Origin: Plasmodiophora brassicae
Taxonomy: Eukaryota
DNA length: 64,000 nucleotides
Reading direction: 5' to 3'
Assembly: GCA_036867785.1 (NCBI GenBank)
Contig: CP145425.1
Location: 496,001 to 560,000 of the forward strand
The notes under the pieces were generated by a model. It searched no databases, was not told the DNA's origin, and worked only from the letters and a program-made list of their open reading frames with translations. Every line of letters begins with the position of its first letter. Positions within the stretch are counted from its first letter, which is position 1. Positions 31,346-52,610 of the stretch are shown in pieces. The translations under genes and the position numbers were made by a program.

Positions 31346-34066
31346 TTAAAGTATGGTGCAGCATTTCGGTGAATGTTCTACCACGGGCGGTTTCTTGGGC
31401 GGGTTCTTGGCGAGTTCGAGGTTGTGCTCGAACACGCTGACGATCTCTTCCTGGAACGCGCGCGCATTGCAGTAGTCCCATCTCTCGTAGAACTTGTGGT
31501 CCTTCTCGTCCATGGTGACCTTCTTGAACTTGCGGTCGCCCTCGGATGAGATCTCGCCCAGCGACACCGCGTTGATATCGTTCCTCGTTGGTTTGAACGG
31601 CGGCTCGACCTGCTTCTCGAGCAGTTCGGACCACTGGATGTCGGCGAAGAACGGATGCTGCTTGACTTCATCGGCGCCTTTGGCGCCCAACCTCTTCGTC
31701 GGGTCCGGCTCGAGCAGCTGTTATGAATACGGTTAGAAATCAGGCGGGCGGGGTCGCCTCGAAGATGCGATGCCGTACCTTCCGAAGGATGTCCTGTGCG
31801 TTCTTCGAGAAGGACAGGTCGTCGAATGTCAGCTCGAACGTCATCGGCTCGTTAGCTTTGGCCAAGTCGGCGTGCTCCTTCTTCGTCCCGAACGGGCACC
31901 ACTGCTTCGGCTTCTTGCAATCGCATCGAGGTCTCTGCACCAACAGCCGTCAGCAGGGTGGCCCCACGGTCAGGGTCGACACCTGTAGCAACGAACCCTG
32001 CCAGACAGCAGCTTGTGCAGGAAGATGCCAAAGCTCCACCAGTCCGCCGTATAGTCGTACGTCTGTCGTCGCATGACCTCGGGCGCCCAGTATCCCGATG
32101 TGCCCGCCAGCGTTCGCAGCGGCCGCTTCGATGATATCCGGTGTACGAGGCCGAGATCGCTAAGTATGACGTGGCCTGCCCACCCGAGTCAGAGGACGGC
32201 GGTTACACGGCGCCGCGTTTCCCGCCCACCGTCGCTGTCGATCAGAATGTTGCCCGGTTTCAGGTCCCGATAGACGAACTTCTTCTTGTGCAGGTGCTCC
32301 AGCGCCAGAATCACTTCGGCGGCGTAGAACTGGGCGCGACTCTCCGCGAACCGGTGACCGCGCACCTGGCCCGCGCTCAGCGTTCGCTCAGGCGACGACG
32401 TCGTCGCATGTACCTCTGTCAGATGGTATTGCAGGTCGCCGCCGTTGCAGAGCGCCAGGACGAGGAACACGTTCTTCTCGTTCGTGAACGAGTACTTTAG
32501 GTTGAGGATGAACGGGGAGTCGACCTTCTGCAGCGCCGCCTTCTCGATCTCGCACAGCTTCTCCGAATGGTAATGCTTGATCTTCTTCTTCGACATCGCC
32601 TTCATGGCGTACACCTTCTTCGTGTCCTTCTTCTGCACGGCCGACACCATGCCGAACGCGCCCTTGCCCAGGGCCCGGAACATCTGGAATGACTCGAACC
32701 CGACCTTTGTTGTCTCGGCGTACTCCCGATGGCAGATGAACGTCTGGAAGGGTTCCCCGGACGACAGGAACTTTGGGTACCAGACCTTGGACAGCTGCAT
32801 GTACAGGGCGGCGTACACGACGTCGAACACCTCCATCATGGACTCGTGCTCGAGCAATTCCGGCGACCTGACCGCGTTCGACATCGCCTCCATCGCCTTC
32901 ATCGGGACATCCTTCGTGTACGTCGTGCTCCAGCCAAGTGAGTTCCTACCCGCTGGCCCACCTTCGACAACCGCAGCGCTCTAGCACCGGATTCAGTACC
33001 GACGCCACCTAGCCACCGAGGGCCAGCGTACCGCTTCCTTCGACGTGCTTGCGCTACGAAGAGGCTCGTTGCTCGTGCTGTGCAGGTGCTCGTTGACGGC
33101 CTGGCCGTCGGGTTTGATGATGATCTTGTCGAGCACCTTGTCGTGCGTATCCGCTGCGGCCAACCTTTTCGGGTCGTCGCAGTTCGAGTCGGATACGGCG
33201 CTGGCCAGCGCCTTCGTTCCCGTTGTTGGCGGGTCCCTGCGGCAGCTGATCAGCAACCTCGCACTCGATTCGACCACGGTGCGTACAGTCGGTTAGGGTT
33301 GTCGTCGTTATCCGACTGCGACCCTTCGTCAACGGCGTGCTCGGAGTGCTGCTTCCCGTGCGTGCCGCTGTTTTTCTGGTCGTTGCCGCCGTTGTCCTGC
33401 TCCAGGTCCTTCACCTGGCAGCCCAAACGTGTCAGGCGCGCACACACGCACCCGGAAATTGCGCGTCGCCGCACTGCACGCACCTGCTCCTGCAGCGACT
33501 TCTTGCCAACGAGCGCCTGGTCCACGCGGATCTCCATCGGCGGCACCAGCTGCGGAACGTTCACTGGGACGCCATGGTCGACCGCCTTCACCTCGATCGT
33601 CTTGTCGCCCTCTGCACCACGACGCATTCGTAAACCCAACGGTATTCGCAGAGGGAAACATCAGCTCTCTACCTTTGAACGGCGAGGTCGATGGCGGTGC
33701 GGGGGCGGCCTGCGCGCTGCTGTTGTTCGCTGCTACGGTACGTGCCGTCCCCTCCGACAACATATCTACGATCTTGAGGCCCCGCATGCGCTTCGATTTG
33801 CCGCTCGACGTCCTCAGCATGCGAATGTCGATGCAGATTTGCAGGAGGGCGTCCTGTCGGTGTTCGGCCAGGAACTTATTGAAGCAGTACTTGCCGAGCG
33901 GCTCTTGCAGCAGGTTGGACAGAGTGAGCTCGGCGAGGACCTTCTCGGTGTACGCAGTCAGCTCCGAGAAGGGCTTCGTCTTCAGCACGATCGGCTCCGT
34001 CTCGCCCATCTGCGCCTTCAGCAGCAGGGCATTGGCGACCGTTGTCTCGATGGCGTCGAACGCCAT
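31346..34066 (-). CDS. G-protein-coupled receptor kinase (GRK)-like AGC kinase with RGS-homology domain and C-terminal CaaX; multi-exon
   Basis: N-terminal [16 protein letters not shown] (GRK alphaN-like), [52 protein letters not shown] (DLG), [17 protein letters not shown]...VEPPFKP, C-terminus CCTIL. Confidence 0.9.
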
Positions 34067-34313
34067 GAGCGCCGGGGGTGGCCGGTGGGCGGACTCAACG
34101 AACGAGGACCCGGACGCGCTGCTACGGCCGGATGCACCCGATGGGATGCGAACGAACCCGCCCGCTGCCGTGACGACGAGTGTCGCACCCGCACCCTAGG
34201 TGCCTATCTTGACGATGCACTCTAGTATCAAGTCGTGTACGCGATCCGACCTGGACCAACCTGGCTAAGATATCTCTTCCCACACGGAGGGGCGCTCTCC
34301 CCGACCTGATCGA

Positions 34314-35597
34314 CTAGCTAATGCACTGTATGGACGTCCTCAGCAGGATGTCGGTTAGCGCGTCGAACACCATTGCCACGTTGTCGGCGTTCGTGCTGCA
34401 GGTCACGAACGACCGCAACGGCTCCTGCTCAACGTTCGGGTACGCCTGCTCGAACTTTCGTCGGATGAACTCGACGCCGGCGTCGAACGTCGGCTCGCCG
34501 TCGTAGTCGGGGAACGCGATGCGCAGGTCGTACTGCTTGATCTTCTGCTGGAACAGGTCCATCTTGTTCAGGAACAGGATGACGCGAATGCCGATGAGGT
34601 ATGGGCTGTTGCAGATCTCGGTGAACAGCCGCAACGATTCCGCCATGCGGTTCACGCGCGCGTCCTCGTAGAGCGTCTGGTTGTACTCGGACAGGGCGAC
34701 GACGAAGATAATAGCGGTCACGCCTTCGAAGCAGTGTACTGTCCACGACGTATGAGCCAGCAATAGGGGCCAACGCCCAACGGCGCTTACGCCATTTCCT
34801 TCTTTCGTTACGCTGCCCGCCCACGTCGATCACTTTGAACCTGGCCGAGCTCTTCCACATGAATTCCTTCTCGGTAATACCTGCGGCATGTGTCAGCGAC
34901 CACACTGGTGCACAGGCGGTCGTGGTTGGAACGGCAACCTGTGGACGGCCTTCTGAACATGATCACGTCTTGGCGAGTGGGAAGGTAATCCTTCGCGGTG
35001 ATCTCCAGGCACCGGTCCATGAAGTACGTTGCGGAATCGTGCAAGTCGGCGTGCGGCACGGCGCGGCGCACGCCCTCGTCCTGCCAGACCTGCCTGATCA
35101 TCTGGCCGATCTCGGGCGTCGGTTGCAGGGTCGTCGGGTCGGCCTGCAGGAAGAACCGTTTCGCCTCGAACGATGCCGGGCGCATCCTCGTGTCCAGCAC
35201 TGGGTCCAACCGGTCGGACGCCTTGATCAGCGCCTGCCAAACGTGTCATCACGGCTACCACGCGCGATAGGTAGCAGGGCACGCGTACCACAGTGGTAGC
35301 AACGACGTCGGCGAAGATCGGCAAACGGTATTCCATGCGGTCCCGGCGCGGCATACCCACGCCATGTATATTAAACAGCTGCTTGAGGAGCGTGGATTTG
35401 CCTGAATCGCCTGCGACATAGGCGTCAGCCTCGGATATGGGCCCCATGCGGATCAGGACCAGACCGGTGCCGAGCAGCAGCAGCTTAATGACGTTGCGCT
35501 GCCCGTGCTTCTCCGACACCATCCCGTTGTCCAGCTGCCGCGACAGCATCCGCTCGCCGTCCTGCACCTTGTTGCGCATCCTCGGGCAACATGGCAT
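34314..35597 (-). CDS. Heterotrimeric G-protein alpha subunit (copy 1), multi-exon
   Basis: KLLLLGTGDSGKSTLLKQ, DSATYFM, YLPTRQDV, DVGGQRNERRKW, HCFEGVTAIIFVVALSEY, FLNKMD, FVTCST. Confidence 0.93.
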
Positions 35598-35901: not shown

Positions 35902-38212
35902 ATGTCGGATGGGGTCGGGTCGAAGCTGTCGATGCGGATCCCGGCGCGGTCGTCGCTGCGCCGCGGGTCGACGGCGCTGACGGCGCTGGACGGCGGCGCC
36001 GGGAGCCTGTTCGCGCGCGCCGACTGGGATGAGGTCGCCGAGGAGATCGGCGAGGTGTTCTCCCTGTCGGAATCGATCGACCTGATCAACGGCCGACGGT
36101 TGATCACGGAACTGGACGAGCGCCTTGACCTGGATCGCGTTCTGCAGGACGTCCACAGCAAGGACCAGTTGCAGCGGTTGTATTCGGGCGACATCCTCCT
36201 GTCGTTGCTCGTTGGCGGGCAGCTGCCTCCGGAAGCCCCCCGATCTGAACGTCTGGGCAATGCGGGCCGTATTGCCAGGCAGGTCGTAGATAGCGGCGCG
36301 TACCACTGCATCCTGCAGAATCTGGGCCGCGCTGTCGCCGCCATTCACCGACCTGATACACTGGTGTCGGCACCGCCCTCGTTCTGGACGGATTCGAAAG
36401 AGATCCGCCTGCATTTCAATATCGTGCTCGTCGTGCTCATCACGCTGCGGGAAGTGCATCTGGCGAATTCGCAAATCGCGGGCAAGACGCTGGTTGAATT
36501 CGGCCTCGACCTGGTCGCATCGGATCAGTGCGATCTGTACCCGTTGAAGAAGGTTCTGCAGCTGATACGTCTGTCGTTGCTCATCACGTTCGGAGACATA
36601 TCGAGCGCCCAGTTCGACCGCCCCGGCTACCTGACCCAGTCGAAAGCGCGGCGACGGGACGTCTTCAAGGTCTGCAAGCACATTAGCGAGTGCTTCGGGC
36701 CCGTTCTGTGTATTCCGAATCCCGTGCATGAATCCGGGATTGAGCTGGTGACGTTCAGCAACACGCCACGTGCTCTGGCGCATCGGGCCACGTACCTCCG
36801 ATCCTGTGTCCACCTGGGCTATTCTGACATGGAGGACTACGTGGACCTGGCAAGCGATGGCCATGCTGAGCGTCCGGAAACGTCATCGGAAGCCTTGTAT
36901 CGCACTCTGCAAACCAACCTGAGACAGTCCGTTGTCGCTCTTCTAAAAATCCTGCTGTCTGTCGCACCGAGCGTTCGCCCCAGCGCCCAGATGGTCAACA
37001 GCGACAACGAGTTCATCATTGCGCCCGGGCTCACGTCCCTCGGGGAGACCCTCGAACGCGCCAGGCATACGGAAATCATCACCAAGTCCATTGCGTTCAT
37101 TCTTCTTGCTCTGTTGAAGTGCTTCCGGCGCGGCCACCCGCTCCAGTTCTGCTCCTTGCTGTGCCTTCTTCAGGACAAGAATGCCCTTGTCCTCATCCTG
37201 AAGTTTCTGAACCAAAATGTTTCTGGGTCGCTGATGAAGCGCAATGACGTCGACGCGATGAGGTACACCGTACTGGAACCCGTACGGCCAGGCTCGTCTA
37301 ACTTGTTGCCGCTAGCCCATTCTCTGAGGAGATGTGGAAGATGCAGGATATGGATACCGTTTTGGAGTCTATCTCGAACGCAGCGCGTCGGTTCATGTCA
37401 TGTACGCTTGTGTTATCATCATGCTGAGCGTAATAGCAGCGCTGCAAGGCCCCTGTTGGAGGAAGTACTCGGCGTATTCGAATTTGCTGCGCGTATTGCA
37501 GAAAATCTCGAAGAACGCGCCCAGGCAAATTCGCGCCCTTGTCAAGTTCCGTGCTCCGGTAATGGGGTTCCGGCTGCGTCATTTAGATGTGGTGCGTGCG
37601 CTCACTGTCTGCGCAGACGATTTTGAAGCGCCTCCTGCAAATTCCGCAGCTCGACATAATTCTGTATACGCTGAAGCTATTCAAGAGCCTGGCACCCTAC
37701 ATGGATCGCAAATGGAGAACCGGTTGCATTGTTATTGGTCTGCGTGGAAGGCCGCTCTGCTGATGCTGCTTTGTAGACCACATGGAAGTTGCCAATGGCG
37801 TCTATCTTCGCATACGGATGGACGTCATGGACGACTGGCTGGACCTGACGCCAGCCGATGGCGATGCCCTCGAGCGCGAGATCAGTGTCGCCAAGGCAAG
37901 CGCCATTTCTTGTACGCATCCGGTCGAGTGTCTTCTGACCACGTTACGTCAGGCGATTCGACAGGCATGCCAACAGTTTAACGCCAACAGGTATCAACAA
38001 CCGGTTGTGAGCCCCATTGTACGTCATGTACCGCGCGTCCAGTTTTCGCCCGCCGTCTAACGGGCTTCCGTCAGTACCTGCTGCCTCCGAACGCTGGCGA
38101 GGACGAGATTCTAGAAGCCGCCCTGCAAGAACATCGCGTTGCCCTGTCGCCGGAATTCAAAGCCTGTTGGCGACAATGGCTTCTCGAGGAAGTTCCGAAC
38201 GCAGTCGTTTAG
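35902..38212 (+). CDS. Striatin-interacting protein (STRIP/FAM40/Far11; STRIPAK component), multi-exon
   Basis: VALLKILL, RHTEIITKSIAFILLALLKCFR..H.LQF, LILKFLNQN, CWR....NLLRVLQKISK, VYLRIR....DDWL, last exon LSPEFKACWRQWLLEEV*. Confidence 0.85.
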
Positions 38213-38293
38213 ACCCTCGACAATGTACGTATTGTATAATCCCCGTTCAACGCATTCCCATTCGTCTGGTCAATGGTTGCGGTACGTACGCGG

Positions 38294-38962
38294 TCATGCC
38301 CTCACACTGCTGCTGCTGCGGGTCCGCGTTGCACCAGCCTCCTGCGTCGGACGTTAACGTGACTGCCGCCTGTTGCTGTTCGACCGTAGCACGCGGGGAC
38401 TCACCTCGACCCTCTTCCGGATGCGGCGCTGTCGCTGCGCCATCGTCTTCGACAACCTGTCCAGAAGCCCAGACCGAATGCCGTTGAAGCCGAGGTCGAT
38501 CGACGTCAGGTGCGATCGCGATACAGACGCTTCAATAGCGCGTTCGATCACTTCGGCGCCGTCGTCGCCGATCCTGTTGCCGAACAGGTTCAGCGTCCTC
38601 AGCGAGCGGTTCAGGGTGAGCGCCTCGGCCAGCGCGATTGCTCCGGGAGACCCGATCGCGTTCCAGCTGAGGTCTAGGACTTGCAGCGTCGTGCTCCGGG
38701 CAACTGCCACCAGACGGGTGACCGACTGCTTTACAGGCGATCGTCGCACAGCACCTGTACCTGCGAGCGCGATGTACTGTGCGCCCGAGTCGCGTATCAG
38801 ATTCCTGGACAGCGTCAGGCGCGTCAGCGTCCTCGACCCTGCGATCGCCTGGCACAGGCAGGGCAGCGCGTCGTCCGTGATCAGGTGCAGGGTCAGGTCG
38901 ACGTGCGTCGCTGTGCGGACGGCCGCCGCCTGCTCCCTCAGACGGCTGCTCTCGGCGCCCAT
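38294..38962 (-). CDS. Small RNI-like leucine-rich-repeat protein with an N-myristoylation motif
   Basis: MGAESS start; LTRLTLSRNLIRDSGA, LQVLDLSWNAIGSPGA, LRTLNLFGNRIGDDGA, LTSIDLGFNGI. Confidence 0.85.
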
Positions 38963-39293: not shown

Positions 39294-40527
39294 ATGTTCT
39301 CGTGCTGCCGGCCCAGCCGGCAGGTGCTTCCGGATGAGCCAGCGGCGCCCGTCCCCGATCAGGCCGTGCAGCGCGCCCTGGAGGAGGAGGCGCTGCGCGC
39401 CCGCGACATCATGAAGCTGCTGCTGATCGGGCCGGGCGACAGCGGCAAGAGCACGCTGTTCAAGCAGACCAACGTCGTGTACGGGACCGGGTTCACCGAC
39501 GCCGAGCGCGCCGCGTTCGTCGGCGAGGTGTACAACTCGATCCTGTCGGCGCTGATCGCCCTGGTCGACGCCTGCGACACGCTGGACGCCGATCTGGACG
39601 CGAAGATCCGCCCGGAGGCGGTCGCCGCTCGCGACCTTCTCAAGGGCGTCCCGATCGGCACGCGGATCGACAGGCGGGTCTGCGACGCGATCCGAACGCT
39701 GTGGGCCGACCCGGGCCTGCAGAACGCGTATGCGCACCGGTCCAGGTTCCAGCTGCACGACTCGACCGCCTACTTCATGGAGCGACTCGGCGACGTGAGC
39801 GCCGACGGGTACGTCCCCACGCAGCAGGACATCCTGCGGGTGCGCGCGTCGACGACCGGCATCCTCGAGCGCGACTTCAGCGTCCAGGGCAGGACGTTCC
39901 GGATCCTGGACGTCGGCGGCCAGCGCACGGAGAGGAAGAAGTGGAGTACGTCCCGTGTTGCGCGCTCCTCCCGTCTCGTCGTGTGCGCGCTAAACCGACC
40001 TTCGTGAACTGTGTGCAGTCCGATGTTTCGAGGGCGTCTCCGCCGTCATCTTCGTGGCGTCGTTGGCCGACTACGACCTGATGCTGTACGAGGACGAGAC
40101 TGTGAACAGGATGGCGGAGGCGCTGAACCTGTTCGGCGAGATCTGCAGGCTGCCCTATTTCCGAAACACGCCGATCATCCTGATCCTGAACAAGAAGGTC
40201 GCGGGACGTTCGGACGCGGGGTCGTCCAGGTTGCACTGACGGTGTCGGCGACAGGACGTGTTCAAGCAGAAGCTGGCCGATTCGAGCCTGGCCAACCTGT
40301 TCCCCGAGTACGCGGGCGGCGCCGACTACGAGGCCGGCGTCCGGTTCGTCCAGGAGCGGTTCCTGGCGAAACTGCCCGCCGGCCTGTCCGTCGAGCCGTT
40401 CGTGACGTGCGCCTGCGAAGTCGACAACGTTCGCCTCGTGCTCGATCGCGTGATCGACCTCATAGTCAGCAAGGCGTCCGCGCCCGTTGTCATCGCACCG
40501 GGCGCTGCTACCACCACGACGCTATAA
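39294..40527 (+). CDS. Heterotrimeric G-protein alpha subunit (copy 2), 3 exons
   Basis: KLLLIGPGDSGKSTLFKQ, FQLHDSTAYFM, YVPTQQDILRVRASTTGI, DVGGQRTERKKW, CFEGVSAVIFVASL, ILNKKD, FVTCA. Confidence 0.95.
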
Positions 40528-43545: not shown

Positions 43546-44409
43546 ATGACGACGAATTTGCCGGTGGCGGCGCTGCTGCTAGCAGTGCTGGTGTGGGGTG
43601 TATGCCACGGCCAGGAGGAAGCGGCGCCGACGGGGCAGGCGGTGACTGCTGCGGCGCACGTGGATGAGGCCGGGCAGACGCTGAACGAGCGAGGGTTCAC
43701 GGACGGACCTGGCGGTCTGAATCGGTTCGTCAACGGGTTGAAGCCCGCGGTCGAAGAGATCGCCGGCGACCAGGCCGGTGGGATCGCGTCCATGGGCGTG
43801 CACTCCGTCGCCAAGTACGTGACGGAAGCGGTGGCGAACAAGTGGGTCGTCGGCCGGTTGTTCATGGCGTACCTGTGGGGCAACCGCCACACGGTCGACG
43901 AGCGTCTCGGCCAGATCGCTGTCGACTACGCCGTGCCGAAGGTCCCGATTGCGGGGGGCATCTACAAGAAGTACCAGGAGGTGATGGCCGCCGATTATGC
44001 GGCCAAGGTCGTACCTGGGCCGAACATCGTCAAGCACCACGTTGGCGGGTACGTCGACCGCATCGCGAAAGATCAGGTTCACGCTTTCGTGGCAGCGCCC
44101 GTGTACCGACAGGTTGGCGGCCACGTCAACAAGGCGCTTGGCGTCGTTGCGAAGGAGGCCGGCGAGGCGCTGGAGCCGCACGCGCCGGAGACCGTCGCGG
44201 CCGGCCGTGCATTCGGTGCCGCCATGAAGCGTCTGCTCAAGGGCCCATCCGACGAGGAAATGGAGGAGTTCTACAAGGAGCACCCGTCGAAGAGGATAAC
44301 GGATGGTGGCGGCAAACGGGAACGGTCGCGGAACACGTCGTCGGGCACCGTCGCTCCAACGTTCACTATCGCGACCACGATCATCGCCGGCCTGCTGTGT
44401 ATCATGTGA
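43546..44409 (+). CDS. Secreted/surface protein with a putative GPI-anchor signal, intronless
   Basis: Signal peptide LPVAALLLAVLVWGVCHG; C-terminal NTSSG + hydrophobic tail FTIATTIIAGLLCIM*; GC3-rich coding bias. Confidence 0.7.
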   Translation: MTTNLPVAALLLAVLVWGVCHGQEEAAPTGQAVTAAAHVDEAGQTLNERGFTDGPGGLNRFVNGLKPAVEEIAGDQAGGIASMGVHSVAKYVTEAVANKWVVGRLFMAYLWGNRHTVDERLGQIAVDYAVPKVPIAGGIYKKYQEVMAADYAAKVVPGPNIVKHHVGGYVDRIAKDQVHAFVAAPVYRQVGGHVNKALGVVAKEAGEALEPHAPETVAAGRAFGAAMKRLLKGPSDEEMEEFYKEHPSKRITDGGGKRERSRNTSSGTVAPTFTIATTIIAGLLCIM

Positions 44410-44450
44410 ATGCATGCATAATACAGCGATGCGTTCGTGGTTGCAGCGCG

Positions 44451-44936
44451 CTATTGTACTTTGTCCTTCGCGGTGGTCGCGCGCGTAATCAAGGCGACGC
44501 CGACCAGGGTGATGACGATACCGGCCGTCCACAGTGGCGAGACGAGCTCGCCGAACAGGACCCGCCCGTACAGGCCCGACAGGAAGAACTGGAGCGACGA
44601 TATGACGGTGGTTGCCGCCGTGGTCCCCAGCGCGTTCATGCTCTTCACCAGGAACGATATGCCAAGGACGTTGCAGGCGAGCATGGACGCGACCAGCAGG
44701 ACGGTGTAGGCCCACTGAACCGTCTGCATTGCGACACACACACACACACGTGAGCCGCCGGTCGGTGCCAGGCGGTGGGCGACACCGACCTGGACGCACG
44801 ACGACGACGACGCAGGGTCGGACGGGCACAGCAGAGCGGACGCTGCCGACTGGCCCGCTGGGCTGAACGCCAGCTTGGCCAGGACCGACCCCGTACTCGA
44901 CAGGCCCGCCGACACCAAGCAGAGCACGACGGTCAT
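44451..44936 (-). CDS. TMEM42-like small multi-pass membrane protein (DMT/EamA-like), 2 exons
   Basis: SAGLSSTGSVLAKLAF, CNVLGISFLVKSM..LGTTAATTVISSLQFFLSGLYG.VLFGE...W..GI.ITLVGVALI. Confidence 0.75.
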   Translation of the reverse strand: MTVVLCLVSAGLSSTGSVLAKLAFSPAGQSAASALLCPSDPASSSSCVQVGVAHRLAPTGGSRVCVCVAMQTVQWAYTVLLVASMLACNVLGISFLVKSMNALGTTAATTVISSLQFFLSGLYGRVLFGELVSPLWTAGIVITLVGVALITRATTAKDKVQ

Positions 44937-45077
44937 CGCGCGCGCGTTTCGCCTCGCCGCACAGTCCGGGCCGGACCGGGCGCCCTCAGAGGTGTGTATT
45001 ATACCTGGGCCAACCTGTGTGCGCGTCACCCCGACCCGCCCCAATGACGAACATCGTTATCTTGTATTGTGACGACA

Positions 45078-48000
45078 TCAAGGGCGGTCGGGCTGACTGG
45101 GCGCAGGCCGGCCTTGATTCGAGGCATAGCTGGCCGGGTGTCGGCGCTCCGCTCGGCTGAGCGTGGTGGCGAACTGGCTGGCCAGGTGGCCGTCCTCGAC
45201 CGACTCCGGCCTGCTGCCCATCGTCTGGTGCAGGTCGGCAGCGGCGATCGTCATCATCATCATCCGGACGGCCAGCTGCCAGACGCTCTCCAGGATGTCC
45301 TCGTTCAGCGACGTCCCGTTCGCCATCCGCGTGCGATCGCCGAACACATCGGTCGAGGACGTCGCCAGGGAAGGCGACGTCGCGTGCACCGGCATCTGCA
45401 GGCCACGATCCGGCTGCCGTCCCGGCTTCCACATCCCAAGGCGGAAGTGTTTCGCCGACGCCGACGACGTCTGCTGGCTGACGGAGGCCTTCGCCTTGCT
45501 GACCGTGTTGGAGCAGAACAGGAAGACCAGGGCGATGTTCAGCAGGTCGCAGGCCAGGAACGCGCTGTAGTAGACGAGGTACCCGGCCAGGTACTGGCCC
45601 GGGAACACGACCGAGAACGTCCACAGCGCGCACTGCATCATGAGCACGATGCAGAACGCGGTGCAGACGCCGGTCACGAAGCGCCCGACCGACAGGTAGG
45701 CGCGCGCCTGGTCCGGGTGCGTGTCCCGCATCGACGCGGCCGCCTCCGACAGGATCGCGAACAGCTGCCTGGCGACGATCAGGAAGCTGACGCTGCAGAC
45801 GAGGCACACGCCAGCGACGAGCAGGGACGCGGCGTCGAACAGGGTGACGGCCCGGGCGGGGATGGCGATGCCCGCGACCAGCAGCGTGGGGACGGCCAGC
45901 ACCAGCAGGGCGTTCCCGATGAAGTACGGGTAGTGGAACCCGGCCAGCAGGGCCGAGGCGGGCGCCGTCGACATGCGCCGGATGCGGTCGCCGAACGACC
46001 AGATGAAGATGATGAAGAAGGTGAGCAGGTGGAACTGGACGACGACAGGGACGACGCCCCAGAGCGCGTACGCCCAGATCGGGGCGGGCGGCGCCCCCGA
46101 CACAATGACGCAGGACGCGGCGAACCGGACGGCGCAGATCGACGTCGCCATGCCCAGGCAGGCGTACACGGCCCGACGCGCGTGCACCTTGACGACGAAG
46201 CGTCGCGTGCGCCTGGCGAGCTCCATCGCGATCAGCAGGAACGCGGCGTACGCCACGATGAACCGTCGATGGACGGTGGCGTCGTCAAGGACGACGTCGT
46301 GGTAGGCGGTGCACGGCGACGTGGGCGGGCGACGCTCCATGTACAGCATCAGGGCGAAGTCGGTCAGGTGCGTGCACGCGCACGTCACGGTGCCGTTCGC
46401 GCCGCCCACCGTCGCGCACCCGGCCGTCGTCCAGTTGCCGCGCGCCACGTCGAACGTGACGCAGACCGGGCGCCGCACGACCGCCGGTTCGCACGCCCCC
46501 AGCGCCGCGGTCGCGTTGTCCCCCACCAGGAGGGCCATGTCGACCAGGATCGGCTCCGACAGGTTCGCCACCGTGTGCGGCACAGGTGCGGCGCCGGGTT
46601 CGTTGACGACGAACGCGTTGACGGTGACGACGGGACTGATGAGCCGCGGGTCGTTGCCGCCGCCGACGCCGCCCGTCGACGACGACCAGTTCGTTCGTTG
46701 CAGGCCGATGCTGGCCATGGGCCCGGCACCCGGCGGCAACAACCGCATCGTCGACAGCTGGGGCAGCGTGACCGGCCCCGTCGGGCAGGGGCGGCGTCGC
46801 CGCCCGTCGTCGACGACCCAGACCTGGGTCGTGAAGGCCGCCGTCGCGATCGACGACGGGCGCTGGCAGGCGATCTGGGCGTCCAGCTGCGCCGCCCCGA
46901 TCCGGTCGACGAGGGCGTGGGCGGACGAGGGCGCCGCCGTCGCCGACGCCGACGCCGCCTGCGCCAGGTGCGCCAGGCCGCCCTGCGACAGGCCCTCGGC
47001 CTGGACGAGGTCCAGGCCGAGGTCGACGACCGACCGCGACGTGTTCGCCGACAGCGCCCGCCCCGTTGCCAACGACGACAGCGCCTGGGCGACCTGGTCC
47101 GGCGGCACGGTCCCGTTGGCGGCGGCGTTCGCCTTCGTCAGCAGGGCGACGAGGTCGTGTCGCGCGGCGTCGACGTCGACGTCGTCGCTGGCCGCCGAGA
47201 GCAGCAGCAGCGCGCCCGTCTGCACGAGCGTGACGACCTCGCCGGGGTTGGTGACGGTCGCCGACAGGTTGGCGATGGCGGCCACCGTCAGCGACGCGGG
47301 CGGCGCGTGCACCTGGACGACGACGGGGACGGCGGCCGATACGATCCGCGTGCCGACGATCCCGGCGCGGACCAGCACGACGAGCGTGTCGTTGCGGGCG
47401 GGGTCGCCAGCGGGCAGGCGGACCTGGGCGCCGGCGACCGCCGACGACACGGTCGCCAGCGCGTACTCGGCCCCGCCCGACGCGTCCCGATACGTGAACG
47501 AGTAGAAGAGCGCGCTCGTCGTCGTCGTCGTCCAGCCCCAGGACGTCAGCGTGAACGTTGACGCAAGGGCGACCGGCCTGACGTCGTTGCACGAGACGGA
47601 TAGGCGCCCGCCGGTCGGCGCAGACGGTACGACGAGCGCGAAGGTCCCGTTGCCGACGACGCCGTTGACCGTTACGGTCAACGCGATCCGGTAGGTGGTG
47701 CCAGGCGCCAGGACGTTCGGCGACAGGCGCAGGGTCAGCGTGTCGGCGGGCGGGACGTCGGCGCTGGCGTCGACGTCGAGCTGGTCGCAGCGCCACTGCG
47801 ACTGGAACGACGACCAGGGCGCCGGCACGCCCGAGACGGACCCGTACAACGTGAACGCCTGCGACGGGTCCAGCACGTCCTGCGCCCGAACCGAGACGGC
47901 GAGCGGCGGCGGCGGCGGCGGCGGGCGCCGTCGGGATGGGCTGGGCGAGCGCGCCGACGCCCGCACCACCACTGGCCGGGATGTGATCGGCGCCCGCCGT

Positions 48001-51000
48001 GCTGACGTTGACGACGGCGCCGGCGCCCGAAGCATCTCCATTCGCCGGACCCGATGGTTGCTGCCCCAGGGGACACACGTCAGCGACCGCGGCCAGCACG
48101 TTCGCACGCGCGCGCGCGCGTATCGTACTATTGGTCGGAGAAGAACAGGGTGGAGCCGTTCAGGAACAGGCCCAGCGGTTCGTTCATGCCGGCGGACGTC
48201 GGCGCCCCGTCCTGGAAGGCGGGGCTCCCGCGCCCGGCCCACGTCGTCACGTACCACGACGGCGCCTGCAGCATTCGGATGCGGTTGTTGGCCCGGTCGC
48301 ACACGAACAGGTTGCCGCGCTGGTCGACGGCCACGTTGGTCGGCAGGTTGAAGGCGGCGGTGGCCGCCGGGCCGTCGGCGAACCCGCCGGCGCCCGTCCC
48401 GACGCCGGCGATCGTGGTCACCTGGCCCGTCGGCGTGACCCGCCGGATCCGATGGTTGTACTGGTCGGCGACGAACAGGTCGCCGCCGGGGCCGACCGCA
48501 ACGCCACCGGGCGTGTTGAAGCTGGCGGCCGTGCCGGCCCCGTCCGCGAACGACGCGTTCCCGCTCCCGGCAACCTGACGACAACGGGGCGTGAGGTGAT
48601 GGGGCAGGCGGCGGCGCCGTCGTTCCCCCAACGAACCGTGGTGACGACGCCGGCGGGCGTCACCTTCCGGATGCGGTGGTTGCCCCACTCGGCGACGTAG
48701 ATGTTCCCGCTGGCGTCGATGCAGGCGGCGTACGGCTGGTCGAACAGGGCGCCCGCGCCCGTCCCGTCCCGGTAGCCGGACGCGCCGCCGAGGCCGGCGA
48801 ACGTCGTGACGCGCCCCGCCGGGCTGATCTTCCGGACGGCGTGGTTGTACCAGTCCATGACGTAGACGTTGTCGTCGGCGTCGACGACGAGCTGGGCGGG
48901 GTTGTTGAACCGGGCGGCCGCGCCCTGGCCGTCGGCGAACCCGGCCGCGTCGCCGCCCGCCCAGGTCGACACGGCGCCGTCCGGGGCGATCTTCCGGATC
49001 CGCTGGTTGAACGAGTCGGCCACGTACAGGTTGCCGCGCGAATCGCCCACGACGCCCCTGGGCGCGTTGAACGCCGCTTCGGCGGCGATCCCGTCCGCGT
49101 ACGATGCGACACCCGTCCCCGCGTACGTCGTGATCGGGCCGGGCTCGAACGCCGACGACGCGACGGCGCTGATCGCCACCTTCCGGATGCAGTGGTTGCT
49201 TCGGGGCACGGGGGCGTCAGACGACGGCAGGTCGGCACACGTGACGGTCGGGCGTACCCGTAATCGCTGACGAGGACGCTGCCGGTCCCGTTCAGCGCCA
49301 GGCCAGCGGGTCGGTTCCACATGGACGACATCGGCGCGCCGTCCGCGTACCCGGGCGTCCACGTGCCCGCCCAGGTCGTCACGTACCACGAGGCGGACGC
49401 CTGCAGGACGCGGACGGTCGTGTTGCCCGTGACGTACACGTTGCCGAGGGTGTCGACGGCGACCAGTTCGGGCAGGTCGAGCTGGGCCTGCAGGGCGGGC
49501 CCATCCAGGGTGCCCTGGACGCCGTTCCCCGCGATCGTCCGCACCGCGCCCGACAACGTCGAGATCGTCCGCACGCGGCGGTTGCCCTGGTCGGCGACGT
49601 AGAGCGTCGTGCCGGCCGCGTCCAGGCCGATCCCGGTCGGGTTGCTGAACTGGGCGGCGGTCCCGTCGCCGTCCGCGTACCCGGCCGTGCCGCTGCCGGC
49701 GACGGTGGTGACGACGCCCGCCGCGGTCACCTTGCGCACGCGATGATTGCCGAACTCGGTGACGTACAGGCTCCCGTCGGCGGTGTCGACGCACGCGCCA
49801 TACGGCTCGCTGAAGGCGGCCAGCGGGCCGGCCGCGTCGACGTAGCCCGACTGGCCGCCGCTCCCAGCGAGCGTGGTGACCCGCCCCGTCGGCGACACCT
49901 TCCTGATCGCGTGGTTGTGCCGATCGACCACGTAGACGTTGTCGTCGGCGTCGACAACGACCTGGGTCGGGCCGTTGAAGCTCGCCGACGGCCCCGGCCC
50001 GTCGGCGAACGCGGGCGACCCGCTCCCGGCGAACGTGGACACGGTGCCGTCCGGGGCCACCTTCCGGATCCGGTGGTTGCCCGAGTCGGCCACGTACAGG
50101 TTGCCGCGCGCGTCCAGGGCCAGACCGCGCGGCGAGTCGAACCGGGCGGTCCCGATCGCGGGCCCGTCGCCGTACCCCGGCGACGTGCACGCCCCGGCGT
50201 AGGTCGAGACCGTGCCCGACGTGTACGGCGACCAGCGCATGCTGGCGGGCGTCGACTGGACGCCAGGCGCGGGCGCAAGCCCCCCATGCACCAGCTGGAC
50301 GGCCCGAACGCGATGGTTCCTGACGGACGCGCGTTGGAAGGGAGGGGAGGCAACCTCGCCAATGCAAACAGGGGGCAGCGTTACCATTGGTCGGCGAACA
50401 GCAGGTTCGTCGTGCCGTTGACGACGAGGCCGAGGGCGCCGTTGACCGTCGCGGACGTCGGCGCGCCGTCCTGGAACGTCGCGGACCCGTCCCCGACGAA
50501 CGTGACGACGTACCACGTCGGCGCCAGCAGCAGGCGGATCCGGAAGTTGCCCTCGTCGGACACGAACAGGTTGCCGTCGGCGTCGACCGCCACGGCCGTC
50601 GGCAGGTTGAACTGGGCGCTGGTCGGGTGCCCGTCGAGGAAGCCGCCGGCGGCGCCGCTGCCCGCGAGCGTCGTCACGTCGCCCGACGGGGACACCCGGC
50701 GGATCCGATGGTTGTTGCGGTCGGCCACGTACAGGTCGCCGTTGGGCGCGCAGGCCAGGCCGGCCGGCGCGTTGAAGCTGGCCGCGTTGCCGGTGCCGTC
50801 GGCGAACGCGGCCTGACCGCTGCCAGCGACCTGTGGCGGACGCGGGGCCATGAGCAGGTCGCGACGACGACCGCGTCGACCGCGCTCCTACCGTGGTCAC
50901 GACGCCCGCCGGCGTCACCTTGCGGATGCGATGATTGCCGAGCTCGGCGACGTACAGGTTCCCGATCGTGTCGATGCAGGCGGCGAACGGCTGGTTCAAC

Positions 51001-52610
51001 AGGGCGGACGGGCCGTCGGCGTACCCGGCGACGCCCAGGGCGCCCGCCACCGTCGAGACGGCTCCCGACGGCGCGATCTTCCTGACCGCATGACAGTACC
51101 GATCCACGACGTACAGGTTGCCGCCGGCGTCGACGACCAGCTGACCCGGCAGGTTGAAGGCGGCGCGCGTGCCGCTCCCGTCGGCGCAGGCGGCGGTGCC
51201 GTTGCCCGCCCACGTCGTGACGTTGCCGCCGGGCGCGATCCTGCGTATGCGCCCGTTGCCCGCGTCGGCGACGAACACGTTGCCGGACGCGTCGAGGGCC
51301 AGACCCATCGGCGAGTTGAACGTCGCCGTTGCGGGCGCCCCGTCTTGGAAGGTGGACACCGCGAGCGTCCCGGCCAACGTGCTGACGGGCCCGGGCGCCA
51401 CTGCCCGATCGGTCACGACCTGCACCTTGCGAATGCAATGGTTGCTGCGACGACACACGTCAGCAAGCGGCCGTGGGACGCGGGCGTACGTCATCGCGGC
51501 GTACTTGCTATCGGCGACGTAGACGGCGTCGGACCCGTTCAGCGTGAGACCAGCGGGCCCGTTCAGCATCGACGACGTGGGCGCCCCGTCCCGGTACCCG
51601 GGTGCCGTCCCGATCCAGGTGGACACGTACCACGACGCGGACGCCTGGAGCACCCGCACGCGGGCGTTGCCCCAATCGGCGACGAACAGGTTGCCAGCAG
51701 GGTCGGTCGCCAGCGCCGACGGGTAGCTGAACCAGGCCTGCATCGGGGGGCCGTCCAGGAACCCGGACGCCGACGACGCCCCCGCCATCGTCGTCACAAC
51801 GGTCGACGTCGTGTTGACGAGCCGGATCATGCGCAGACGATGCCTGTTGCTCTCGGCGACGTACAGGACCGTCCCGTTCGAGCCAACCGCGATGCCGACC
51901 GGGCGGTCAAACGACGCGACCGTGCCCGGCCCGTCGTTCCCGGTCGCAGCGCCGCTGCCCGCCACGGTCGTCACGACGCCGCTCGGCGTGATCCTCCGGA
52001 CGCGATTGTTGCCCTGGTCGGCGACATACACGTTGCCGTTGGCGTCGATGCACGCGCCCGACGGCCGGTTGAAGTAGGCGAGGGGGCCGTTCGCGTCCAG
52101 GTACCCCGAGGTGCCACCGTGGCCGGCTGCGAAGCGATACCGTCGCCGCGTCAGCCCGCGTTGTTGAACGTCGCGGAAACGAACGCACTCACCGAGCGTT
52201 GTGACGCTGCCCGACGGCGATATCTTGCGAATGGCGTGATTGTTCACATCGATGACGTAGACGTTGTCGCTGGCGTCGACGACGAGCTGTGCGGGGGCGT
52301 TGAAGCTGGCCGACGTGCCGGGCCCATCGGCGAACGCGGCGCTGCCCGAACCGGCGAACGTGGACACGGTTCCGTTCGGGGCAACCTTCCGGATCCGGTG
52401 GTTGCCGGAGTCGGCCACGAACAGGTTGCCCTTGGAGTCGAGCGCGTGCCCCGTCGGCGTACTGAACGTGGCGCTCGTCGCCGTCCCGTCCCGATACCCG
52501 CTGGTCCCGCAGACGCCGGCGTACGTCGACACGCTGCCTGGGGCGGATCCAGTCGCCAGCCCGGCAAGGGCGGTCACGACGACAGCGACGTCCCAGAACA
52601 GGGGACGCAT
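45078..52610 (-). CDS. Large adhesion-GPCR-like receptor: signal peptide, 4 NHL beta-propeller modules, Pro-rich linker, REJ/PKD-like region, GAIN/GPS, 7TM, Ser/Thr-rich tail; multi-exon
   Basis: Repeated FN.P.G.A.D..GNLYVAD.GNHRIRKI; REJ-like L.LSPNVL.PG.TY...PTGG.L.V...FTL...GW...LFYSF.Y; GPS PVCVTFD....WTTAGC......VTCACTHLTDFALML; seven hydrophobic helices at ~45510-46270. Confidence 0.85.

What the first reader, a model, noticed from the sequence alone, without database searches (positions are those of the whole stretch)
31346..52610. Clustered G-protein signalling module: GRK + two G-alpha + adhesion-GPCR-like receptor within ~21 kb
Seen: GRK-like kinase (31346-34066), G-alpha 1 directly upstream on the same strand (~250-bp gap), STRIP/Far11, a myristoylation-motif LRR protein, G-alpha 2, DD3-3-like and GPI-type surface proteins, and a GPS-7TM receptor. 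Much of 39-52.6 kb is visibly more GC-rich than its flanks. Known: receptor, G-alpha and GRK are the activation and desensitisation core of GPCR pathways and are normally unlinked in eukaryotic genomes. Inference: a physically linked receptor-transducer-desensitiser system, possibly for surface or host sensing. Best candidate for an undescribed system in this window.
Basis: partly seen in the sequence, partly recalled or inferred. Interest (0 to 1): 0.82.

Follow-up and report, generated by a model that had tools for sequence, protein, structure and literature searches.

The report
Linked G-protein signalling genes in Plasmodiophora
Nine tightly packed genes of the clubroot pathogen Plasmodiophora brassicae include a receptor kinase, two G-protein alpha subunits and a giant adhesion-receptor-like protein, but nothing yet shows that they work together as one unit.

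Summary
The window is Plasmodiophora brassicae. Positions 31346-52610 hold nine genes, and contigs of four runs carry spliced forms of them.

- **GRK-type kinase**: complete, 754 aa.
- **Two G-alpha genes**: intact, 354 and 367 aa.
- **Receptor**: 2383 aa, with a signal peptide, 17 NHL repeats, REJ, a GPS with an HL|T site, a 7TM of GPCR fold and a Ser/Thr-rich tail.

Public records already name three of them "G protein-coupled receptor kinase", "G-protein alpha subunit" and "PKD/REJ-like".

The claim that they form one system is not shown.
- The two G-alphas are lineage-specific paralogues, so a local duplication explains their linkage.
- Five unrelated genes sit between the signalling genes, on both strands.
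- All CDS gaps are 35-331 bp, so the 247-bp gap between G-alpha 1 and GRK is ordinary.
- The one related GRK locus with flanks has no G-alpha.

No genome was held, so counts, permutation and synteny could not be run.

The most unusual part is the receptor. It joins a GAIN/GPS to a 7TM outside Holozoa, and that 7TM matches no solved GPCR by sequence.

The parts
31346..34066 (-). GRK-type kinase gene: 9 exons, 8 introns of 48-69 nt, 754 aa. Layout: N-terminal GRK-like helix, weak RH/RGS domain split by a ~250-aa low-complexity insert, AGC kinase with DLG, C-terminal CCTIL.
   Evidence: P0199, named 'G protein-coupled receptor kinase [P. brassicae]', threads exactly onto the window. Its introns between 32175 and 33611 sum to 272 nt, the length missing from contig X11 record 1. 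Pfam: Pkinase 1e-60; RGS E 0.0013 at 19.6 bits, below the 23.9 cut-off. Best PDB matches are GRKs. Aligned with metazoan GRKs.
34251..34305 (-). Spliced 55-nt GT..AG intron in the 247-bp spacer between the G-alpha 1 stop codon and the GRK ATG. It starts 8 nt after the stop. It belongs either to the G-alpha 1 3'UTR or to the GRK 5'UTR.
   Evidence: The joint 34245|34301 (cut +5) is present in contigs of 4 of 4 runs laid. Intron sequence. The 184-nt leader after the intron contains no ATG.
34314..35597 (-). G-alpha 1 gene: 5 exons, 354 aa, starts MPCCPR.
   Evidence: All four introns are seen as joints. The model is identical to P0201. Pfam G-alpha 6e-98.
35902..38212 (+). STRIP/Far11-like gene, ~678 aa, divergent from G-alpha 1 (304 bp between the CDSs).
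   Evidence: Pfam DUF3402 8e-13. Five GT..AG joints. Model. One further joint, 37893|37951, is not resolved.
38354..38962 (-). Small leucine-rich-repeat protein, 183 aa, starts MGAESS. The reading of this as a myristoylation-type motif is recalled, not tested. Divergent from G-alpha 2.
   Evidence: Pfam LRR_6 1e-24. Intron 38704-38760 appears in contig pieces. Model.
39294..40527 (+). G-alpha 2 gene: 3 exons, 367 aa, starts MFSCCR, with a ~15-residue extension beyond the usual C-terminus.
   Evidence: Identical to P0062, 'G-protein alpha subunit [P. brassicae]'. Pfam G-alpha 9e-101.
40563..43218 (+). Membrane protein of ~780 aa, with hydrophobic stretches near both the N- and the C-terminus.
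   Evidence: Own gene model; the start is uncertain. No Pfam family at E<=0.001. The Atlas gave only unnamed eukaryotic clusters. Hydropathy.
43546..44409 (+). Single-exon secreted-type protein, 287 aa, with a hydrophobic N-terminus and a short hydrophobic C-terminus. A GPI anchor is possible but untested.
   Evidence: ORF and translation. No Pfam hit. Contigs cover 43547-44723.
44451..44960 (-). The start codon is approximate.
   Evidence: Joint 44723|44790, CT..AC, in 4 of 4 runs. Model. Pfam EamA E 7e-4, below the cut-off.
45078..52610 (-). Receptor gene: ~7 exons, 2383 aa, running signal peptide, NHL propellers, REJ, GAIN/GPS, 7TM, tail.
   Evidence: Own model. It has the same length and architecture as P0189 from another isolate, apart from ~27 substitutions and two intron choices. 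The last exon is 100% identical to P0182. Pfam on P0189: NHL x17, REJ, GPS.
48129..52610 (-). Ectodomain: signal peptide plus NHL beta-propeller units, spread over six exons.
   Evidence: NHL E 1e-73 to 1e-117 and TEN_NHL. The predicted splice at 48061-48128 rebuilds an NHL-type 'DQ|YNHRVRR' motif across the junction. This junction was not among the joints shown.
47286..47744 (-). REJ-like region.
   Evidence: Pfam REJ E 6.6e-10, 38.6 bits against a cut-off of 25.
46350..46469 (-). GPS motif CxC-T-H-L|T-D-F-A-L-M. The predicted cleavage falls between codons 46365-46367 (L) and 46362-46364 (T). A tethered-agonist-like TDFALML follows.
   Evidence: Pfam GPS 2.4e-9. Motif position. The family profile hits 20 of 20 adhesion GPCR chains in the PDB, mostly on this motif. 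Foldseek finds GAIN domains of BAI3, CELSR1, BAI2 and latrophilin, and full-length CD97.
45477..46316 (-). Seven-helix domain of GPCR fold, with no assignable sequence family.
   Evidence: AF2 model of the 7TM alone: pLDDT 81.6, pTM 0.77. All 50 rows shown from 48,161 chains are GPCRs or designed GPCR-like folds, Z 16.9-19.0, 217-273 residues aligned. No Pfam 7TM family. No PDB sequence hit. Only 6 relatives in 1.84 billion representatives.
45081..45476 (-). Cytoplasmic tail of ~130 aa with two Ser/Thr clusters (SQQTSSAS and SLATSSTD).
   Evidence: Composition count. That these clusters are GRK sites is inference.

Best explanation
This is an ordinary, extremely gene-dense stretch of the Plasmodiophora brassicae genome. 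It carries nine genes in 21.3 kb. Four of them encode intact parts of a GPCR-type pathway.

Each part most likely does its textbook job. Only the sequence features are shown; the mechanism is inferred.
- The giant receptor binds something with its NHL propellers.
- Its GAIN/GPS domain cuts itself at HL|T, and the tethered TDFALM peptide activates the seven-helix domain.
- The seven-helix domain activates a palmitoylated G-alpha.
- The prenylated GRK docks through its N-terminal helix and phosphorylates the Ser/Thr clusters of the receptor tail.

The linkage itself is most likely history and packing, not a dedicated module.
- The two G-alphas are lineage-specific paralogues left side by side by a local duplication.
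- GRK and one of at least four GPS-7TM paralogues happen to lie nearby, in a region where every gene is within ~0.3 kb of the next.

Some shared regulation, above all of the G-alpha 1 and GRK pair, remains possible.
For: Organism and gene identities.

Splicing: contigs of 4 of 4 laid runs (kind 'RNA?', a guess) carry the spliced forms. Fifteen joints are listed and 17 more are not shown.

GRK:
- PDB matches to the kinase exon begin with 16 GRK rows (6e-31 to 5.5e-30), followed by STK32A (2.9e-29), more GRKs, and PKA at 5e-24.
- The relative P0002 gives 31 GRK rows (9e-72 to 5.5e-62) before STK32A at 1.6e-58.
- The N-terminal helix, the RH motif [11 protein letters not shown] and the DLG motif align with 14 metazoan GRKs.
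- Relatives P0002-P0005 carry Pfam RGS plus Pkinase.

G-alphas:
- Pfam 6e-98 and 9e-101.
- They are 39% identical.
- In a tree of 103 rows, {G-alpha 1, P0126} has 100/98 support and {G-alpha 1, P0126, G-alpha 2} has 99/99. Quick trees agree.
- They share one intron position, phase 1, after KW.

Receptor.

Density and interleaving:
- CDS gaps are 35-331 bp, and 93% of the span lies inside start-to-stop intervals.
- One contig runs across five genes on both strands.

Paralogues elsewhere in the genome.

The rest of the window holds housekeeping genes: Tsr1, PDCD2, DnaJ, Atg6, ankyrin, RBM39-like, PPR.

L008, the one related GRK locus with flanks, has no G-alpha.
Against: - Under random gene order with assumed family sizes, G-alpha next to GRK has a probability of 2e-4 to 1.4e-3. 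G-alpha, GRK and a receptor within nine genes has 5e-6 to 4e-4. That is nominally unlikely.
- G-alpha 1 and GRK are head to tail, and a spliced intron begins 8 nt after the G-alpha 1 stop. At least one transcript therefore spans most of the spacer.
- The signalling genes share high GC3 (0.85-0.94), against 0.56-0.72 for the flanking housekeeping genes. So do the unrelated 40.6-43.2 kb gene and the LRR gene.
- Synteny was tested in only one distant relative (45% identity), with 1.7 kb of upstream flank.
- Family counts for the genome were not available.
Confidence: 0.55

Rival explanations
1. This is a true functional module. The receptor, its G-alpha(s) and its GRK are kept together because they are co-regulated or co-inherited as one surface- or host-sensing unit, for example in zoospores.
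For: - All three tiers of the pathway lie within nine genes.
- The arrangement is nominally improbable under random order.
- G-alpha 1 and GRK are adjacent head to tail, with a spliced spacer intron.
- Each G-alpha sits on a ~300-bp divergent spacer.
- GC3 is high and similar across these genes.
- The receptor tail carries Ser/Thr clusters.
Against: - Five unrelated genes are interleaved.
- The G-alpha pair is explained by duplication.
- There are at least 4 receptor paralogues, and three of them lie elsewhere.
- The 7TM has no sequence link to G-protein-coupled families.
- There is no G-alpha beside the GRK in L008.
- The relative's GRK transcript contig (2668 nt for an 805-aa protein) has no room for a G-alpha.
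- The finding is post hoc, from a scan of many windows.
Confidence: 0.22
2. G-alpha 1 and GRK form one transcription unit, either dicistronic or with obligatory read-through. The transducer and its receptor's desensitiser would then be made in a fixed ratio. The other genes would be bystanders.
For: - Contigs of 4 of 4 runs join the last G-alpha 1 exon to the first GRK exon through the spliced 55-nt intron. Its donor lies 8 nt after the G-alpha 1 stop.
- There is no ATG in the 184 nt between the intron and the GRK start.
Against: - The same contigs also run on across genes of the opposite strand. Contig continuity here reflects overlapping UTRs, not single transcripts.
- Contigs cannot show transcript ends.
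- The 247-bp gap is typical of the region.
Confidence: 0.1
3. The GPS-7TM protein is not a G-protein-coupled receptor at all. It would be an adhesion or mechanosensing membrane protein, polycystin-like in its ectodomain or GPR137/TOM1-like in its membrane part. In that case it has no functional tie to its G-alpha and GRK neighbours.
For: - No Pfam 7TM family was found.
- The 7TM-only profile finds no GPCR in the PDB.
- The nearest named Atlas clusters are THH1/TOM1/TOM3, GPR137_N and PRRT3, scoring 0.90-0.92.
- The ectodomain has REJ, as polycystin-1 does.
Against: - The fold matches G-protein-coupled class A receptors at Z 17-19 over ~260 residues.
- The GPS is followed by a tethered-agonist-like TDFALM, as in adhesion GPCRs.
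- The Pfam TOM1 hit occurs in 1 of 6 members, at E 0.019, and is out of register.
- There are seven helices, not eleven, and no PLAT domain.
Confidence: 0.13

Closest known systems
Holozoan adhesion GPCRs (ADGR family, e.g. ADGRE5/CD97, ADGRG6, ADGRL3, ADGRF1)
   Same: - A GPS motif with HL|T sits directly before the first membrane helix, followed by TDFALM, which resembles the tethered-agonist consensus TxFAVLM quoted in PMC12716839 (passages).
- There is a large modular ectodomain.
- The GAIN fold is matched.
- The family profile hits only adhesion GPCRs in the PDB, 20 of 20.
- The membrane part has seven helices of GPCR fold.
   Different: - The 7TM is not recognised by Pfam 7tm_2 or by any other 7TM family.
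- A 7TM-only profile finds no GPCR in the PDB.
- The ectodomain is built of NHL propellers plus REJ. I do not recall these domains in metazoan adhesion GPCRs; this was not checked.
- The organism is a rhizarian, whereas PMC12716839 places the GAIN/7TM module in Holozoa only (passages).
- The GAIN beta-subdomain of the model has low confidence, pLDDT 25-50.
Polycystin-1 / PKD-REJ family
   Same: REJ domain followed by a GPS. NCBI names the paralogues 'PKD/REJ-like domain-containing protein'.
   Different: - Seven helices of GPCR fold, instead of eleven helices with a channel-like end.
- No PLAT domain was found by Pfam.
- The 11-TM and PLAT features of the family are recalled knowledge.
G protein-coupled receptor kinases (metazoan GRK4/5/6 and GRK1, and protist GRK-like kinases)
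   Same: - The N-terminal helix aligns with the metazoan one ([14 protein letters not shown] against LENIVANTVYIKA).
- It has the RH motif, an AGC kinase with DLG, and a kinase C-tail aligned through GRK6 residue 509.
- GRKs are its best PDB matches.
- The C-terminal CCTIL looks like a prenylation box, as in GRK1/7 (recalled).
   Different: - A ~250-aa low-complexity insert splits the RH domain. Only the four protist relatives share it.
- Pfam RGS reaches only 19.6 bits, below the 23.9 cut-off.
- The host is a rhizarian. de Mendoza et al. 2014 (PMC3971589, passages) list GRK-like proteins for Holozoa, Dictyostelida, Heterokonta and Haptophyta.
Tandem G-alpha gene pairs of vertebrates (GNAI/GNAT, GNAQ/GNA14, GNA11/GNA15; recalled, not checked here)
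   Same: Two G-alpha paralogues lie a few kb apart as the trace of a local duplication.
   Different: - Here the pair is in opposite orientation.
- Two unrelated genes separate the pair.
- The two are only 39% identical.
Fungal mating-type loci that link pheromone GPCR genes with downstream signalling genes (e.g. Cryptococcus MAT; recalled, not checked here)
   Same: Precedent for physical linkage of a GPCR with components of its pathway in a eukaryote.
   Different: - There is no sign here of two deeply diverged alleles. The receptor differs from another isolate's copy by only ~27 of 2383 residues.
- No mating function is known.

Membership tests
GRK (G protein-coupled receptor kinase) | AGC-type kinase domain closest to GRKs, with DLG in place of DFG | tested here: met
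   Pkinase 1e-60. PDB: the first 16 rows for the kinase exon are GRKs, and the first 31 rows for relative P0002 are GRKs. SDLGL aligns with the metazoan DLG, and D526, L527 and G528 are invariant.
GRK (G protein-coupled receptor kinase) | RGS-homology (RH) domain N-terminal to the kinase | tested here: inconclusive
   Pfam RGS E 0.0013 at 19.6 bits, under the 23.9 cut-off; E 0.084 on exon 1 alone. The RH motif and the RH terminal helices align with GRK1 and GRK6. Relatives P0002-P0005 carry a precomputed PF00615 hit. No structure was predicted for this part.
GRK (G protein-coupled receptor kinase) | Conserved N-terminal receptor-docking helix | tested here: met
   [19 protein letters not shown] aligns with ME(L/I)ENIVAN..(L/I)KAR of 14 metazoan GRKs, and A18 is invariant. 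The docking role itself is recalled knowledge.
Heterotrimeric G-protein alpha subunit | Full-length G-alpha domain with intact nucleotide-binding and catalytic motifs | tested here: met
   PF00503 matches across positions 4-332 and 5-333 of its 333, at 6e-98 and 9e-101. GxGxSGKST, the switch-I R..TxGI, DVGGQR and NKxD are present in both proteins and invariant in a 45-row alignment.
Adhesion GPCR | GPS motif with an HL|T/S cleavage site inside a GAIN domain, directly before TM1 | tested here: met
   Pfam GPS 2.4e-9. CACTHL|TDFALM lies ~16 residues before helix 1. Foldseek finds CD97 at 4e-5 and the GAIN domains of BAI3, CELSR1, BAI2 and latrophilin. Profile hits in the PDB are adhesion GPCRs in 20 of 20 cases. 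Caveat: the GAIN beta part of the model has pLDDT 25-50. Cleavage itself is untested.
Adhesion GPCR | 7TM domain of the secretin/adhesion class (Pfam 7tm_2) | tested here: not met
   No 7tm_2 hit at E<=1 in the window protein, nor at E<=0.01 in 6 of 6 family members. The 7TM-only profile finds no GPCR in the PDB at E<=10. The fold is GPCR-like. All 50 rows shown are class A receptors or designed folds, which does not exclude class B2.
Polycystin-1 / PKD-REJ | REJ plus GPS, followed by 11 membrane helices with a PLAT domain after TM1 | tested here: not met
   REJ and GPS are present. Only seven helices follow. There is no PLAT hit and no further hydrophobic segment in the tail.
Functional gene cluster (co-regulated signalling module) | Linkage conserved in related species | tested here: inconclusive
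   Of 80 metagenome loci fetched with a GRK alignment, 5 carry the GRK-type N-terminus, and only L008 has genomic flanks. None shows G-alpha, STRIP, LRR or the receptor by tblastn. Pfam on 19 ORFs of L008 finds only the kinase. No plasmodiophorid genome was available.
Functional gene cluster (co-regulated signalling module) | Clustering beyond chance, given the family sizes in the genome | not testable with these tools
   No genome is held for the window. Only a simulation with assumed counts was run.
Functional gene cluster (co-regulated signalling module) | Co-expression of the members, not shared by the interleaved genes | not testable with these tools
   All laid runs are contigs, whose depth cannot rank genes.

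The most novel reading that the evidence does not exclude
Plasmodiophorids built, or inherited from a pre-holozoan ancestor, their own class of self-cleaving receptors activated by a tethered agonist: NHL or CAP ectodomain, REJ/GAIN, and an orphan 7TM. The copy in this window would signal through the adjacent G-alpha pair and be switched off by the adjacent GRK. The 21-kb block would then be a conserved host- or surface-sensing supergene of the clubroot pathogen. Part of this claim is separate and likelier: a GAIN/GPS-7TM module exists outside Holozoa, contrary to a 2025 survey. On the evidence here I put that part at about 0.6.
Probability: 0.1. Interest if true: 0.72.

Novelty: new variant of a known kind. 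Interest (0 to 1): 0.36.

Why it matters
P. brassicae causes clubroot of brassica crops. I found nothing in the held literature on how it senses roots or surfaces. The two genome papers I searched have no mention of G proteins or GPCRs in their main texts.

A complete, apparently expressed set of receptor, G-alpha and GRK gives concrete genes to test for that sensing.

For evolution, two points stand out.
- A GRK with the full metazoan-type N-terminal helix occurs in Rhizaria. This widens the known range of GRKs.
- A family of at least four receptors joins a GAIN/GPS and a tethered-agonist-like peptide to a GPCR-fold 7TM outside Holozoa. A recent survey places the origin of that module in Holozoa (PMC12716839, passages).

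If the linkage proved to be conserved, it would be a rare case of a eukaryotic GPCR pathway kept together on the chromosome. As it stands, the linkage is an unexplained but not compelling coincidence.

Tried and rejected
- **Genome-wide counts and permutation.** No genome is held. The simulation uses assumed numbers only.
- **Earlier notes of this scan.** Nothing relevant turned up.
- **Sequencing runs.** No RNA holder is listed. Four runs guessed to be RNA were laid and turned out to hold spliced contigs. Cover of the receptor region (45.3-51.3 kb) was thin and partial. The joints of the receptor gene were not among the 15 shown, so its introns are predictions.
- **My own gene finder.** Before the known joints were forced, it missed 3 of the 4 G-alpha 1 introns. 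It also chose two GRK introns that differ from P0199. Forcing the spacer intron gave a false G-alpha 1 C-terminus, which I discarded.
- **Synteny through metagenome contigs.** Of the 80 loci, most are short transcript-like contigs or other AGC kinases.
- **Counting G-alpha paralogues through protein searches.** Only the best 120 of 417 hits are listed, so no count is possible. No third P. brassicae G-alpha was seen among the rows, which proves nothing.
- **'DD3-3-like'.** It could not be checked.
- **7TM as THH1/TOM1/GPR137-like.** There is an Atlas lead, but only a weak, out-of-register Pfam hit in 1 of 6 members. Not adopted.
- **Adhesion-class 7TMs.** They were not among the 50 rows shown by VIA-align. 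This excludes nothing.
- **Complex prediction of the receptor C-terminal fragment with G-alpha 1.** It never ran. The queue was full or the machine gave no answer (listed in steps_to_tell).
- **Mating-type-like locus.** Considered and set aside. The receptor differs between isolates by only about 1%.
- **Literature on P. brassicae G-protein signalling.** Searches found nothing on this locus. Bi et al. 2019 (Phytopathol. Res. 1:12) is not held and was seen only as a reference entry. It may already list these genes.
- **Supplements.** I opened none. Those of de Mendoza 2014 (figs S10, S11) and of the genome papers may bear on the claims that rhizarian GRKs and this locus are undescribed.

Full report
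**What the window is.**
- GC content is 53-73% and no genome is held for the window.
- Protein searches identify it as Plasmodiophora brassicae.
  - The kinase exon matches 'hypothetical protein PBRA_001862 [Plasmodiophora brassicae]'.
  - The first exon of G-alpha 2 is 100% identical to 'G-protein alpha subunit [Plasmodiophora brassicae]'.
  - The last exon of G-alpha 1 is 100% identical to a P. brassicae protein.
- The DNA is held by runs labelled 'plant metagenome' and by coded organisms.

**Gene structures.**
- Contigs of four runs guessed to be RNA, laid on 31300-51299, carry spliced forms. Fifteen joints are listed and 17 more are not shown.
- Of 16 joints I looked at (the 15 listed plus one taken from the contig pieces), 15 resolve into GT..AG introns of 52-66 nt.
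- With these introns and a small codon-bias gene finder I modelled nine genes.
- Three models were checked against database proteins.
  - G-alpha 1 and G-alpha 2 are identical to P0201 and P0062.
  - The public 754-aa GRK protein P0199 threads exactly onto 31346-34066 as nine exons. Its introns between 32175 and 33611 sum to 272 nt, the length missing from contig X11 record 1.
  - My own first GRK model had two introns wrong.
- The public accession numbers fit nine consecutive genes. They run SPR01287 (receptor), SPR01291 (G-alpha 2), SPR01295 (GRK), and likewise XXQ39205, XXQ39201, XXQ39197.
- CDS-to-CDS gaps are 35-331 bp, and 93% of the 21.3 kb lies inside start-to-stop spans.

**The kinase is a GRK.**
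- The kinase exon's PDB matches begin with 16 GRK rows (6e-31 to 5.5e-30). STK32A follows at 2.9e-29, then more GRKs, with PKA at 5e-24. The alignments reach ~40 residues upstream of the kinase into the RH domain.
- The 805-aa relative P0002 gives 31 GRK rows (9e-72 to 5.5e-62) before the first other kinase at 1.6e-58.
- In an alignment with four protist relatives and 14 metazoan GRKs, several features line up.
  - The N-terminal helix [14 protein letters not shown] aligns with the metazoan LENIVANTVYIKA.
  - The RH motif [11 protein letters not shown] aligns with QPIGRxLFRxF.
  - The kinase has DLG.
- Pfam RGS stays below its cut-off, at 19.6 against 23.9 bits, because a ~250-aa low-complexity insert splits the RH domain. 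Relatives P0002-P0005 carry RGS plus Pkinase.
- The protein ends in CCTIL. The relatives end in CC-x-x-Q. I read this as a prenylation box, from recall.
- Public records already name the protein 'G protein-coupled receptor kinase'. The older PBRA_001862 model is N-terminally truncated at 443 aa.
- de Mendoza et al. 2014 (PMC3971589, passages only) list GRK-like proteins for Holozoa, Dictyostelida, Heterokonta and Haptophyta. A rhizarian GRK is therefore a modest extension.

**The two G-alphas.**
- Both are full length (PF00503, 6e-98 and 9e-101). Both have intact P-loop, switch I arginine, DVGGQR and NKxD motifs.
- Both start with Cys pairs (MPCCPR and MFSCCR) rather than Gly2.
- They are 39% identical and share one intron position in phase 1.
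- How the tree rows were chosen:
  - 188 hits of 320-400 aa came;
  - thinning at 75% identity left 105;
  - two long-branch rows, P0292 and P0294, were dropped.
- In the resulting tree of 103 rows, {G-alpha 1, P0126} has 100/98 support and {G-alpha 1, P0126, G-alpha 2} has 99/99. Quick trees agree.
- Caveats: the bootstrap had not fully settled, G-alpha 2 has a deviant composition, and the sample holds only what two searches returned.
- I conclude that the pair descends from a duplication within this lineage. That explains most simply why the two lie 3.7 kb apart.

**The receptor.**
- My model has 2383 aa: signal peptide, NHL propellers, REJ, GPS, seven helices, tail.
- A public protein from another isolate, P0189, has the same length and architecture. 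It differs by about 27 substitutions and two intron choices.
- Other public models keep only the last exon, at 984-987 aa and without a signal peptide.
- The splice that joins the NHL part to the last exon rebuilds an NHL-type motif. It was not among the joints shown.
- Pfam finds 17 NHL repeats, REJ and GPS.
- The GPS reads CACTHL|TDFALM. This is close to the tethered-agonist consensus TxFAVLM quoted in PMC12716839.
- A profile of the family (GAIN plus 7TM, six sequences) hits 20 chains in the PDB at E<=10, and all are adhesion GPCRs. Most alignments lie on the GPS. Those to ADGRG6, ADGRL3 and ADGRD1 run on into the helices.
- An AF2 model of GAIN plus 7TM has pLDDT 61.7, with a poor GAIN beta part. 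Foldseek matches it to full-length CD97 and to the GAIN domains of BAI3, CELSR1, BAI2 and latrophilin.
- The 7TM modelled alone has pLDDT 81.6. It matches only GPCR folds in the 50 rows shown, at Z 16.9-19.0 with 217-273 residues aligned.
- By sequence the 7TM is an orphan:
  - six relatives in 1.84 billion representatives;
  - no Pfam 7TM family;
  - no GPCR in the PDB with a 7TM-only profile;
  - only weak Atlas leads to TOM1/GPR137-like clusters.
- P. brassicae has at least four such genes. One has a CAP domain in place of NHL.
- Araç et al. 2012 (PMC3321182, passages) reported GAIN domains before a first membrane helix in Dictyostelium and Tetrahymena.
- The 2025 eLife survey (PMC12716839, passages) holds that the GAIN/7TM module is restricted to holozoans and that non-holozoan adhesion GPCRs lack ectodomains. 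This family does not fit that picture.
- Whether the join is ancestral or convergent is open.

**Is it a module?**
- For: all three tiers of the pathway lie within nine genes.
- For: G-alpha 1 and GRK are head to tail, with a spliced 55-nt intron that starts 8 nt after the G-alpha 1 stop. The 184-nt leader after it has no ATG.
- For: a toy simulation with assumed counts gives small probabilities.
- Against: the G-alpha pair is a duplication.
- Against: five unrelated genes on both strands are interleaved (STRIP-like, LRR, two surface-type proteins and an EamA-like protein).
- Against: the 247-bp spacing is ordinary here.
- Against: the same contigs that bridge G-alpha 1 and GRK also run across genes of opposite strands. 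They therefore show overlapping UTRs, not one transcript.
- Against: three receptor paralogues lie elsewhere.
- Against: G-protein coupling of the orphan 7TM is inferred from fold alone.
- Against: the only related GRK locus with flanks (L008, 45% identity, 1.7 kb upstream) has no G-alpha.
- The remainder of the window holds housekeeping genes.
- The GC-rich block reflects GC3 of 0.93-0.94 in G-alpha 2, the unrelated 40.6-43.2 kb gene and the receptor. The receptor is also rich in Ala, Gly and Val. GC richness does not mark the signalling genes as a set.

**Verdict.**
- The parts are correctly named and are already in public annotation.
- The 'system' is a hypothesis that these tools could not test.
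- I rate it as co-located pathway components (0.55) rather than a dedicated module (0.22).
- The receptor family is the part most worth following up.

**Limits.**
- No genome, no raw reads and no complex prediction (that tool never accepted the job).
- I opened no supplements.
- Bi et al. 2019, on GPCR signalling in P. brassicae, was not readable. It may already cover some of this.

Noticed in passing
window 44451-44960 (-): A small EamA-like multi-pass membrane gene with a spliced 66-nt intron (44724-44789) lies between the secreted-protein gene and the receptor.
   Followed up: partly
window 31346-34066 and 45078-52610: Public gene models disagree. PBRA_001862 is an N-terminally truncated GRK (443 aa against 754 aa). 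Several records keep only the last exon of the receptor (984-987 aa, no signal peptide), while one isolate's record has the full 2383 aa.
   Followed up: yes
window 45078-52610 (-): The receptor differs from another isolate's copy (P0189) by about 27 amino-acid substitutions, spread over the NHL and REJ/GAIN ectodomain and none in the 7TM or tail. The window's G-alpha 1, G-alpha 2 and GRK each match a public protein exactly, but from which isolates was not established. No DNA of the other isolate was at hand, so dN/dS could not be computed.
   Followed up: partly
window 37893-37951 (+), in the STRIP-like gene: A 57-nt joint is reported in all four runs with ends AG..TC. I could not place a GT..AG intron there. 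Its length is a multiple of three, so both forms stay in frame.
   Followed up: no
window 1-64000: GC3 differs strongly between neighbouring genes. It is 0.56-0.72 in the housekeeping genes sampled from 0.5-24.7 kb and 60.8-64 kb, and 0.83-0.94 in eight of the nine genes of 31-52.6 kb (STRIP-like 0.73).
   Followed up: partly
window 57840-58676 (-) and 59784-60437 (-): Two ORFs carry a 'fungal' Zn(2)-Cys(6) binuclear cluster domain (Pfam Zn_clus, E ~1e-7). This is unexpected for a rhizarian.
   Followed up: no
outside the window, same contig (PBRA_001888 / SPR01318.1 / XXQ39174.1): A second GPS-7TM paralogue (983 aa, named 'GPCR proteolysis site') lies 23-26 accession numbers beyond the GRK, probably as many genes away. 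Two of the at least four family members therefore share one chromosome region.
   Followed up: no
window 31341-41479: One assembled contig (X11 record 1, 9078 nt) runs across five genes on both strands with all introns removed. Transcripts of neighbouring genes must overlap heavily in this genome.
   Followed up: partly
window 39294-40527 (+): G-alpha 2 carries about 15 extra residues (…SKASAPVVIAPGAATTTTL) beyond where G-alpha proteins usually end. This is the part that normally inserts into the receptor.
   Followed up: no
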